Origin: Longimicrobiales bacterium
GTDB taxonomy: Bacteria > Gemmatimonadota > Gemmatimonadetes > Longimicrobiales > Gaopeijiaceae
Assembly: GCA_965219445.1 (NCBI GenBank)
Contig: CBDCNQ010000005.1
Coordinates: 736,001 to 800,000 of the forward strand
Length of the DNA stretch: 64,000 bases
Reading direction: 5' to 3'
The notes under the pieces were generated by a model. It was given only the letters and a program-made list of their open reading frames with translations. It ran no database searches and was not told the DNA's origin. Each line of letters opens with the position of its first letter. Position 1 is the first letter of the stretch. Position numbers and translations under genes: made by a program. Shown one piece after another: positions 62,297 through 64,000 of this stretch.

Positions 62297-62852
62297 ATGA
62301 AGCGCCTCCTTTAATGTGGCAACCGCCACCGCCTTCTTCGCGCTGTCGGCGCCTGCGGATTCGTCCGCGCAAGCGAGCGTGTTCTTGGGCGGGGGCACAA
62401 CGATTCCCACGAGCGACTACAACGACTTCGCCAAGGTGGGATGGCAGGGACACGGCGGGGTGCTTGTCCCTGTGGGTGAAATGGGCGTCGTGGTGGGAGC
62501 CGAGGGCTACTACGGTAGCAACGGCCACGACACCGACGGTGACAAGACGAACCTGTACGGTGGCGTAGCTTTGGTCGGTTGGCAGGGTGGGGACCCCGAC
62601 GGGATATCGCCCGGCGTCTACGCGGGATTGGGCTCCATGACCCACTCGTTCAAGTCGGACAATACCCCCCTCTTGGAGGGCTCGGACACGAGCCTGGCCG
62701 CGGGCGGGGGGGCGGGCGTCAGCTTCCCACCCGGAAGCATCAGTGGCTTCGTGGGCGCTAATTTCGTCACGGGCTTCAGCGACAACTCTGGAACGAAGTA
62801 TTTCGGGTTCGGCTTCAGCGCGGTCATCCCGGTCGGCGGCGGCGGCATGTAG
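62297..62852 (+). CDS. Small outer-membrane beta-barrel protein, +1 frameshift at ~62310-62312
   Basis: ATG AAG CGC CTC CTT (T) AAT GTG gives the signal peptide MKRLLNVATATAFFALSA; alternating Gly/aromatic strands. Confidence 0.72.
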
Positions 62853-62877: not shown

Positions 62878-62948
62878 CTGGCGGCAACAGGGAGCTGGCA
62901 GCGACAAGGGGCTGGCAGCAACAAGGGGGCTGGCAGCAACAAGGGGGG
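62878..62948 (+). repeat. Four tandem 17-19 bp repeats (CTGGCAGCAACAAGGGG)
   Basis: Units at 62878, 62895, 62912 and 62930; no spacers. Confidence 0.9.
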
Positions 62949-62980
62949 AGGTCCTGCACGGGCCTCCCCCCCTTCCTTTC
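62941..62980 (+). terminator. Intrinsic terminator-like hairpin
   Basis: AAGGGGGGAGGTCC-TGCAC-GGGCCTCCCCCCCTT followed by CCTTTC. Confidence 0.65.
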
Positions 62981-63134
62981 CAGCGCTCTCGGGGACCAGC
63001 TCACCAAGCGGATGCGTGGTGGATAGAGAGGCCGATCGGACTCGCGCGTTTGCCGCCCCACCCCACCCTTCCTATTATCATCAGCCAGCCTCCTCGGCAG
63101 GCTCGAATCCACCATGCCCGCGAGTGACCAAACG

Positions 63135-63203
63135 ATGACGATGGACATCTCTCAACCATGACGCCGGACGTTTCTCGACCATGACGCCGGACATCTCTCG
63201 AAG
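63135..63203 (+). repeat. Three diverged 23-bp tandem repeats spanning the fdnG start codon
   Basis: ATGACGATGGACATCTCTCAACC / ATGACGCCGGACGTTTCTCGACC / ATGACGCCGGACATCTCTCGAAG. Confidence 0.9.
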
Positions 63204-64000
63204 AGACCTCCTCAAGGTCTCCGCCCTCGCGAGTGGGGCCACCGTCGTCAACGCGTTGGGCTTCAACTTGAAGCCCGCGTACGCGGCCGCCCGCGAGCTC
63301 AAGATCTCCAACGCCCGCGAATTCAAGACGGTGTGCCCATACTGCGCCGTCGGGTGCGGGGCGATCGCGTACGTCCACGGGAGCGGCGGCCTCAACACGG
63401 TGAACTCCATCATCCACGTGGAGGGAGATGCGGACAGCCCCATCAACGGTGGGACACTGTGCCCGAAGGGGGCCGCCCAGATGCAGCTCGCCATGAGCCC
63501 GCGCCTCGAGAAGGGCCCCAAATACCGTGAGGCGGGCGCTTCGGAGTGGACCGATGTCACCTGGGACTTCGCGATGGACTGGTTCGCCAGGAAGTTCAAG
63601 GATTCGCGAGACGCCTCGTTCGTGGAGCGGGACGAGGAGGGCCGAACGGTCAACCGCTGCGAGGGCATCGGCTGGGTGGGAAGCGCCACGGTGGCCAACG
63701 AGGACGCCTACTTCATCACCAAGACGATGCGCGCCATGGGGTTGGTCTACATCGATCACCAGGCCCGGATATGACACAGCCCCACAGTGGCCAGTTTGGC
63801 CGCAACGTTCGGGCGGGGCGCCATGACGAACCACTGGACGGACATCAAGAACACCGACGTGGTGCTGGTCATGGGCGCCAACCCGGCGGAGAACCACCCC
63901 TGCGGGTTCAAGTGGGCGCTCGAGGCCAGGGATGAGCGCGGCGCCCGGATCATAACGGTCGACCCCCGTTATACCCGCACCTCCGCCGTCGCCGATCATC
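63181..64000 (+). CDS. fdnG: Formate dehydrogenase-N/O alpha subunit, selenoprotein (partial)
   Basis: SRRDLLK Tat motif; CPYCAVGC...LCPKG; DHQARI-TGA(63772)-HSPTVASLAATFGRGAMTNHW continues in frame to the window end. Confidence 0.95.
63772..63803 (+). promoter_or_regulatory. Sec codon plus bacterial SECIS hairpin
   Basis: TGA followed by GTGGCCA-GTT-TGGCCGC (63787-63803), with GT in the loop about 20 nt after the UGA. Confidence 0.85.

What the first reader, a model, noticed from the sequence alone, without database searches (positions are those of the whole stretch)
63124..63203. Chain of ATGA-coupled mini-ORFs leading into the selenoprotein fdnG
Seen: the first 23 nt of fdnG occur three times in tandem (18/23 and 19/23 identity to the genic copy). 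Because 23 is not a multiple of 3, each copy is an 8-codon ORF (MTMDISQP*, MTPDVSRP*) whose TGA overlaps the next ATG as ATGA, stepping through all three frames into fdnG. A further GTG ACC AAA CGA TGA (63124-63138) overlaps the first ATG the same way. No Shine-Dalgarno sequence is evident before 63181. Inference: a termination-reinitiation relay could replace the RBS. All stops are UGA, so the relay might respond to UGA decoding. The divergence between copies argues against an assembly artefact, but neutral slippage is possible.
Basis: partly seen in the sequence, partly recalled or inferred. Interest (0 to 1): 0.72.

Follow-up and report, generated by a model that had tools for sequence, protein, structure and literature searches.

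The report
Duplicated gene start relays ribosomes
The first 23 bases of a formate dehydrogenase gene are copied in tandem just ahead of it; across related marine bacteria the copies drift like neutral DNA except for their start/stop overlap, so they likely pass ribosomes into a gene that has no good binding site of its own, a new origin for a known trick, with no sign that it senses selenium.

Summary
The gene is fdnG of an fdnGHI-fdhE operon; its closest named relatives are Longimicrobiales (Gemmatimonadota). Of 16 close loci, 14 have an ATG mini-ORF ending on fdnG's ATGA and 2 are leaderless; none has a Shine-Dalgarno match of 4 nt or more at fdnG. The sister lineage and outgroups have one copy and an SD. 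In 13 aligned proximal copies, positions 5-23 change at the rate of four-fold degenerate sites, while ATGA never changes (likelihood-ratio p about 1e-6; column-permutation p 0.004). So the overlap is selected and the peptide is not. Best reading: ribosomes load on an upstream copy and reach fdnG by termination-reinitiation. This is inferred; no RNA or ribosome data were found. Selenium sensing is unsupported: ATGA forces UGA, the only SECIS sits at the Sec codon, and SD-led relatives have the same Sec cassette. RTGA-coupled uORFs are known (mycobacteria, Sinorhizobium, MIRU), and this scan noted similar self-duplicated chains on other DNA. New here: origin from the gene's own start, and SD-led, uORF-coupled, leaderless and operon-fused states within one genus.

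The parts
62943..62971 (+). Terminator-like hairpin closing the upstream unit; makes fdnG the first gene of its transcript (inferred)
   Evidence: one such site found against 1.1 expected in shuffles, so weak alone
63050..63078 (+). Sigma-70-like promoter, TTGCCG-17-TATTAT; transcript start predicted near 63085
   Evidence: the same promoter is present in 15 of 16 clade loci although upstream genes differ, and two leaderless relatives place ATG 7 nt after this -10
63114..63161 (+). Longer form of the first mini-ORF from an in-frame ATG (MPASDQTMTMDISQP*); poorly conserved start
   Evidence: ATG at the homologous place in 8 of 13 leaders
63124..63138 (+). 4-codon ORF VTKR*, overlapping the GAGTGA remnant of the old SD region and an A-rich spacer; stop overlaps ATG 63135
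   Evidence: RTG 11 nt before the first unit in 10 of 12 loci with the spacer (8 GTG, 2 ATG), and the TGA kept in 12 of 12
63135..63161 (+). Distal 23-nt copy, mini-ORF MTMDISQP*; keeps the ancestral ATG-GAC start at 63141; likeliest de novo entry point (inferred)
63158..63184 (+). Proximal 23-nt copy, mini-ORF MTPDVSRP*; its TGA overlaps the fdnG ATG. The conserved link.
63181..64000 (+). fdnG, formate dehydrogenase-N alpha subunit with twin-arginine leader; runs past the window (998 codons with Sec), followed by fdnH, fdnI, fdhE
   Evidence: TIGR01553 1335.9 bits against cut-off 814.2; TIGR01582 and TIGR01583 over cut-off; FdhE below cut-off
63769..63827 (+). In-frame UGA (63772-63774, Sec) and SECIS
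   Evidence: Rfam SECIS_3, E 3.7e-10, 49.8 bits, below the gathering score of 63; selA, selB, selD and tRNA-Sec in the genome

Best explanation
The repeat is a tandem duplication of fdnG's own first 23 bases whose upstream copies form ATGA-overlapping mini-ORFs that likely deliver ribosomes to fdnG by termination-reinitiation, standing in for a Shine-Dalgarno site that fdnG lacks. Shown: the sequence, its spread, and the rate contrast. Inferred history: the ancestor started at an SD-led ATG-GAC; a 23-nt duplication moved the coding sequence 23 nt away from that SD and out of frame; because 23 is 2 modulo 3 and the unit begins ATGA, the upstream copy ended exactly on the second copy's ATG, so expression survived. 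The genic copy then lost its old ATG (codon 3 is ATG in only 1 of 16 clade loci), the SD decayed, and the gene came to depend on the relay. Further slippage added a second copy in several lineages, as here. Inferred working in this genome: a 30S loads at ATG 63135 (weak GAG, A-rich spacer) or at 63124/63114, translates 8 codons, restarts at 63158, translates 8 codons, restarts at 63181. The peptides would be by-products. No regulatory input is required by the evidence.
For: (1) 14 of 16 close loci have an ATG mini-ORF ending on the fdnG ATGA, the other 2 are leaderless, and none of the 16 has an SD of 4 nt or more at fdnG; none of the other 100 distinct loci at >=70% identity was classed as ATGA-coupled. 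(2) In 13 proximal copies, columns 5-23 evolve at scale 3.3-3.4 against 3.5 for 53 four-fold sites of fdnG; columns 1-4 show 0 changes, against 26 parsimony changes over 11 other columns that are invariant in the genic copies. Two-rate test p 1.2e-6; neutral simulation kept an in-frame ATG in all 13 tips in 3 of 3000 runs. (3) Two of the three other invariant columns are C's where a C-to-T change would give an in-frame stop in most copies (picked after seeing the data). (4) Variation is not concentrated at third codon positions (7, 11, 7 extra states), so the peptide is not selected. (5) rpoB puts the SD-led G003 and G009 as sister (100%) to a clade (100%) of 6 uORF-coupled genomes and 1 leaderless genome; outgroups have one copy, an SD, and a -10 about 23 nt closer to the gene. 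(6) Escapes from the relay supply ribosomes another way: leaderless in L007 and L099; in L004 the promoter is gone and a 329-aa cyclase gene is joined by TGATG to the mini-ORF, which ends on fdnG's ATGA. (7) Contig ends in runs X7 and X10 show further diverged units, again with ATGA 23 nt before fdnG. (8) Experimental precedents: uPPE2/PPE2 (PMC11260477, passages); Sinorhizobium uORFs including a 4-aa one before glnK (PMC13285730).
Against: No RNA, ribosome or protein evidence: the one RNA run laid gave nothing. The 14 loci share one origin and are not 14 tests. Restricted to the 6 ancestral-type proximal copies the invariance is weak (P 0.03 for ATGA, 0.07 for ATG), and the model-free column test gives 0.004 for ATGA and 0.02 for ATG. 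Absence of in-frame stops alone is not significant (458 of 3000 neutral runs). The fdnG gene trees place SD-led L008 and L010 inside the clade, L008 next to leaderless L007 with 93-100% support, in conflict with rpoB, so the order of events is likely but not proven. The entry point is not identified: the SD before 63135 is only 3 nt, and duplex energies for 63135 (-4.9) and 63181 (-4.6) hardly differ. About a fifth of called starts here have no anti-SD match at all, so fdnG could start unaided. Three loci (L004, L005, L035) also have in-frame upstream starts. In E. coli, removing the SD lowered reinitiation in 4 of 5 pairs (PMC6728339, passages).
Confidence: 0.62

Rival explanations
1. The mini-ORFs are translated but act as a damper: a ribosome on a start 23 nt upstream covers the fdnG start, and each extra hand-over loses ribosomes, so the copies hold FDH-N expression down or set it by copy number.
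For: In Sinorhizobium, shortening an ATGA-coupled uORF from 39 to 24 nt lowered downstream output through spatial conflict (PMC13285730 section 19); 24 nt is this unit's size. Copy number is one or two among relatives. The same invariant ATGA is predicted.
Against: A damper needs a strong genic start to damp, and fdnG has none in the clade. A repressing uORF need not end exactly on the start codon. Lineages that lost the leader became leaderless or operon-coupled. No copy-number variation was seen among contigs of this strain type.
Confidence: 0.15
2. Neutral slippage scar: fdnG starts by SD-independent initiation at its own ATG, and the copies persist or are renewed by repeated slippage without any role.
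For: Columns 5-23 evolve neutrally; copies are gained, lost and refreshed from the genic copy (L003 differs from its gene at 2 of 23); some invariant columns arise by chance (13% of four-fold sites; 8 of 33 columns in the 5' leader block); the 6-copy subset test is marginal.
Against: Renewal resets all 23 positions alike, yet only ATGA stays fixed while copies differ from their own gene at 2-11 positions; all 13 proximal copies keep exactly 23 nt while the 5' leader has several indels; L004's junction is exactly coupled.
Confidence: 0.13
3. The conserved ATGA(C) words are binding sites for a DNA- or RNA-binding regulator, or part of an RNA structure, and the reading frames are incidental.
For: Direct repeats downstream of a promoter can be operators (general knowledge). 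The GGA in each copy changes more slowly than the rest (p 0.05).
Against: No CsrA match in the genome (91.8% complete). No consensus pairing involves the upstream copy and no pair covaries; the leader folds no better than shuffles (z -0.48). Spacing between words varies (21, 23, 13 nt) upstream of the last link; GTG swaps with ATG; L004 keeps the frame without the promoter.
Confidence: 0.06
4. Selenium or UGA-decoding sensor: read-through of the mini-ORF UGAs changes how many ribosomes reach the selenoprotein gene.
For: The gene is a selenoprotein gene with full Sec machinery; read-through of the proximal UGA would carry the ribosome past the fdnG start out of frame.
Against: Bacterial Sec insertion needs a SECIS right after the UGA (recalled); Rfam finds one only at 63769-63827 and folds after the mini-ORF stops differ among relatives. 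UGA is forced by the overlap. SD-led relatives have the same Sec codon and SECIS region. No such repeat precedes selA, selB or selD by eye. Read-through would lower fdnG when selenium is plentiful, the wrong direction.
Confidence: 0.04

Closest known systems
RTGA-coupled small upstream ORFs of mycobacteria (Shell et al. 2015, PMC4633059; passages read)
   Same: Short ORF whose TGA overlaps the downstream RTG; the paper reports cases where the coupled architecture is conserved and the peptide is not, and proposes ribosome delivery.
   Different: Those uORFs are mostly leaderless and single; here the uORF is a copy of the gene's own start, occurs as a chain of up to three links, and lies inside a leader in this genome.
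uPPE2-PPE2 of Mycobacterium tuberculosis (PMC11260477; passages)
   Same: Main gene lacks an SD, shares an AUGA overlap with a uORF, and depends on it, mainly by termination-reinitiation.
   Different: That uORF has its own SD and sits under a B12 riboswitch; no riboswitch or conserved structure is found here, and the uORF SD is weak.
ATGA-coupled uORFs of Sinorhizobium meliloti (PMC13285730; passages and sections 19-20)
   Same: Short leader uORFs, down to 4 aa before glnK, raise expression of the first gene of an operon.
   Different: Both starts carry SDs in the glnK case; no duplication origin or chain appeared in the parts read.
MIRU, mycobacterial interspersed repetitive units (as described in review PMC12548453, passages; Supply 1997 not read)
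   Same: Short repeat at a start codon whose ORF is coupled to the gene at -4, so expression is preserved.
   Different: MIRUs are dispersed and apparently mobile; this unit occurs nowhere else in the genome and derives from the gene it precedes.
Translational coupling by termination-reinitiation at ATGA/TGATG gene overlaps (Huber et al. 2019, PMC6728339; passages)
   Same: Same junction geometry; this operon uses TGATG (fdnG-fdnH) and ATGA (fdnH-fdnI) overlaps too.
   Different: Described between full genes; the SD usually helps reinitiation in E. coli, while here only a GGA lies 12 nt upstream.

Membership tests
RTGA-coupled ribosome-delivery uORF | Short ORF whose TGA overlaps the start of the downstream gene (RTGA) | tested here: met
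RTGA-coupled ribosome-delivery uORF | On the same transcript, upstream of the gene | tested here: inconclusive
   Conserved promoter upstream; transcript start not mapped; RNA run gave no cover
RTGA-coupled ribosome-delivery uORF | Architecture conserved, peptide not | tested here: met
   weaker in the 6-copy subset
RTGA-coupled ribosome-delivery uORF | uORF is translated and the downstream gene depends on it | not testable with these tools
   needs ribosome profiling and reporter mutants
MIRU-like element | Dispersed copies at many loci of the genome | tested here: not met
   No other copy within 4 mismatches in the 4.56-Mb genome
MIRU-like element | Internal ORF coupled at -4 to the gene at the site | tested here: met
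Selenocysteine-sensing leader | SECIS directly after the leader UGA (requirement recalled) | tested here: not met
Formate dehydrogenase-N alpha subunit, Sec type | Full-length match to TIGR01553 over cut-off, in an operon with beta and gamma subunits | tested here: met
Formate dehydrogenase-N alpha subunit, Sec type | In-frame UGA with SECIS, and selA/selB/selD/tRNA-Sec in the genome | tested here: met
   the SECIS scores below Rfam's gathering score

The most novel reading that the evidence does not exclude
A gene's own start codon region, copied head to tail, has become an expandable multi-step reinitiation ladder. Every frame of the leader funnels through NTGA junctions into fdnG, and the number of hand-overs sets or conditions formate dehydrogenase output, for example through release-factor or recycling-factor availability. 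One genus would then show, step by step, how a bacterial gene swaps SD-led for uORF-fed, leaderless or operon-fed initiation.
Probability: 0.15. Interest if true: 0.7.

Novelty: new variant of a known kind. Interest (0 to 1): 0.47.

Why it matters
A 2025 review (PMC12548453) lists ribosome delivery by a short uORF as proposed and possibly widespread, but evidence that such uORFs are kept by selection for the overlap alone is thin. Here the unit's source is known, the non-functional columns give an internal neutral clock, and only ATGA is frozen. The set of natural leaders (one copy with SD, one or two extra copies, leaderless, fused to an upstream gene) in front of a protein 89-98% identical at its N-terminus is a ready-made series for measuring how efficient successive reinitiation is without an SD, and how new uORFs arise and become indispensable. 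It does not reveal a new selenium sensor.

Tried and rejected
Assembly artefact: rejected. Genome-wide habit: rejected; start duplications are not enriched, and short ATG uORFs ending on NTGA occur before 97 of 818 lead genes against 63 of 818 in a control frame, with no excess in SD-less genes (12 of 139 against 59 of 486) (my own gene calls). Dispersed element: rejected. Conserved RNA structure or Rfam family in the leader: none. CsrA sites: no CsrA match. Leaderless uORF as the general entry: NTG stands 6-7 nt after the -10 in 9 of 13 leaders (4 GTG, 1 ATG, 4 CTG) but not in this genome, and CTG is a poor start (recalled), so it stays a lead. A position-weight score of start contexts favoured the first copy over the genic ATG in most loci but also scored SD-led outgroups low, so I did not rely on it. 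The probability printed for the RTG spacer is a pattern likelihood, not a tail probability, and was discarded. 'All leader stops are coupled' is true but uninformative, as outgroup leaders also hold few stops. RNA run X17 gave no cover; runs X17-X22 hold under 0.11 of the words and are no evidence. Paper searches: searches returned coupling papers; (fdnG, formate dehydrogenase, uORF, coupling, leader; at least 4 terms) returned none, none of 14 papers held 'tandem duplication' in a bacterial uORF context by their listing. Subscription papers are mostly outside the library; no supplements were opened.

Full report
Observation. A 23-nt unit stands 2.9 times at 63135-63201, the upstream copies match the genic one at 18 and 19 of 23, and VTKR*, MTMDISQP* and MTPDVSRP* each end on the next ATG as ATGA. 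Contigs from five runs of two studies span the repeat without a substituted letter; one may be the source sample, and two come from a single sample. A sigma-70-like promoter at 63050-63078 and a terminator-like hairpin at 62943-62971 lie upstream, so the chain sits in a predicted leader of about 95 nt.

The gene. Read through the UGA at 63772, the ORF matches formate dehydrogenase-N alpha far over cut-off and is followed by beta, gamma and an FdhE-like gene, joined by TGATG and ATGA overlaps. Rfam finds SECIS_3 at 63769-63827 and nothing in the leader. selA, selB, selD and tRNA-Sec are present. The closest named relatives are Longimicrobiales and other Gemmatimonadota assemblies.

Genome background. 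With my own gene finder (4047 genes, 3808 with refined starts; start choice used SD strength, which inflates SD counts), 56% of starts have a contiguous anti-SD match of 4 nt or more, against 26% of internal ATGs and 71% of 90 near-unambiguous starts; 22% have none. fdnG has only a GGA 12 nt upstream. It ranks first of 3808 for duplication across the start, and such duplications are not enriched genome-wide. Short ATG uORFs ending on NTGA precede 97 of 818 lead genes, against 63 in a control frame. The unit occurs nowhere else in the genome. So this is a feature of one locus.

Relatives. Searches of 41 related genomes, metagenome contigs (best 80 of 179 kept) and genome contigs (best 80 of 115 kept) gave 190 loci. 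After dropping those under 70% identity, those without the N-terminus or 60 nt upstream, and identical copies, 116 remained. Sixteen loci at 91-100% identity, grouped by hand, have no SD at fdnG: 14 have an ATG mini-ORF ending on its ATGA (13 starting at -23, L004 at -17) and two (L007, L099) have the ATG 7 nt after the -10. Of the other 100, 45 have an SD of 4 nt or more, 18 look leaderless, 37 were unclassed, and none was ATGA-coupled; most start ATG-G and could not be. Upstream copies number one or two, and in L002, L032 and L034 the distal copy is 21 nt and fuses in frame with the proximal one. The rpoB tree, independent of the feature, puts SD-led G003 and G009 as sister to the seven genomes with duplicated or leaderless starts, both at 100%. 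Outgroups have a single ATG-GAC start, an SD, and a -10 box 52-57 nt before the position of codon 1, against 78 nt in three single-duplication loci. Against this, fdnG trees place L008 beside L007 (93-100%) and L010 inside the clade with low support, which points to exchange of fdnG between lineages. The direction SD-led to coupled rests on the outgroups and rpoB; no formal topology test was run.

Selection test. The 14 loci descend from one event, so their count is not the evidence; the rate contrast is. On a tree from the fdnG coding sequence of the 13 loci with a full proximal copy, columns 5-23 evolve at scale 3.3-3.4 and 53 four-fold degenerate sites at 3.5. Columns 1-4 never change. At the 11 other columns that are invariant in all genic copies, and so have a known source whenever a copy was renewed, there are 26 parsimony changes. 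The chance of an unchanged ATG at that rate is about 5e-5 (0.005-0.007 at half the rate); the two-rate test gives p 1.2e-6 for ATGA; neutral simulation kept an in-frame ATG in all tips in 3 of 3000 runs. More cautious figures: column permutation 0.004 for ATGA and 0.02 for ATG, and 0.03 and 0.07 for the six ancestral-type copies alone. Lack of in-frame stops is not significant by itself (458 of 3000), though two further invariant columns are the C's whose transition would create stops (noticed after the fact). Changes are not biased to third codon positions, so the peptides are not selected. Upstream, an RTG stands 11 nt before the first unit in 10 of 12 loci and the TGA that ends its frame in 12 of 12; L003, which lacks that spacer, is the one locus whose first copy lost the TGA. 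In L031 the first copy's ATG became CTG, with the third-codon ATG and an upstream GTG left in frame. In L004 a cyclase gene replaces the promoter and is joined by TGATG to the mini-ORF. Contig ends in two more runs show diverged units with ATGA again at -23, one of them a two-contig consensus with 0.65 agreement.

Mechanism. Shown: the geometry, its distribution, and constraint on ATGA. Inferred: ribosomes enter upstream and are handed on by termination-reinitiation. The entry point is the weak step. The first copy's ATG lies 10 nt after a GAG, the same distance as between GAG and the start in SD-led L008, behind an A-rich spacer; two relatives have AAGGA before an upstream ATG. Several relatives have GTG or ATG at the predicted transcript start, in frames that run into the chain; this genome does not. 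Energies do not separate 63135 from 63181. No conserved structure involves the copies. No expression data were found.

Selenium. ATGA can only use UGA, and -4 overlaps are this genome's commonest junction (350 of 3808). No SECIS follows the mini-ORF stops. All 15 outgroup and sister loci that cover the site have the same Sec codon and nearly the same SECIS without any relay. Read-through would lower fdnG when selenium is available. I put this at 4%.

Comparison. It works like the RTGA-coupled uORFs of mycobacteria (PMC4633059, passages), uPPE2/PPE2 (PMC11260477, passages) and the Sinorhizobium uORFs (PMC13285730, passages and sections 19-20); membership is met on geometry and conservation, and untested on translation. 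It resembles MIRUs as the review describes them (PMC12548453, passages) but fails the dispersed-element test. The Sinorhizobium paper also shows that a 24-nt coupled uORF can hinder a downstream start that has its own SD, which keeps the damper reading alive. Searches showed no paper on an fdnG leader relay or on uORFs born by duplication of a gene's own start; the library lacks most subscription papers. This scan's earlier notes record similar self-duplicated ATGA chains in other genomes, unchecked by me; they suggest the route recurs and gave me the MIRU lead.

Verdict. Real, selected for its overlap, probably a ribosome-delivery relay that replaced an SD (62%); damper 15%, neutral scar 13%, binding site 6%, selenium sensor 4%. 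New variant of a known kind; interest 0.47.

Noticed in passing
window 62878-62947: A second tandem repeat, period 17-18, about 4 copies, directly before the terminator-like hairpin; the unit is found nowhere else in the genome within 2 mismatches.
   Followed up: partly
window 62297-62852: The upstream gene (178 aa from GTG 62316, no Pfam or NCBIfam match) seems to have a broken 5' end: ATG 62297 reads MKRLL and stops, one base out of frame with a signal-peptide-like continuation. Could be a pseudogene or an assembly slip; not covered by the reads laid.
   Followed up: partly
L007 and L008, fdnG coding region: fdnG is 91-98% identical along its length between G001 and G003, although rpoB puts them on different sides of the genus split; suggests transfer or recombination of fdnG.
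   Followed up: partly
run X5, loose end before window 63177: One contig end suggests a relative with no 23-nt copy in which the GTG 4-codon ORF couples straight to fdnG, with a short duplication of the GAGTGA word upstream. Single contig, not verified.
   Followed up: no
L005, L035, L004 leaders: Upstream ATG or GTG codons in frame with fdnG would give N-terminally extended twin-arginine leaders.
   Followed up: no
116 fdnG loci at >=70% identity: This gene family switches often between SD-led and leaderless-like starts (45 with SD, 20 leaderless-like only, 37 unclassed, 14 coupled), and the gene upstream of the promoter differs in nearly every close relative.
   Followed up: partly
G000:C5 near 87120-88043, minus strand (L209): selD carries one in-frame TGA, so it is probably itself a selenoprotein gene.
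   Followed up: no
G000:C5 window-relative 66177-66290 (L191): fdnH has about 38 residues before its family profile begins, starting at the TGATG overlap with fdnG.
   Followed up: no
G000:C3 minus 135645; C4 minus 146541; C4 plus 870255: A few other gene starts have tandem copies with a period of 2 modulo 3 (29, 17, 20 nt) and RTGA starts, which would form similar coupled mini-ORFs.
   Followed up: no
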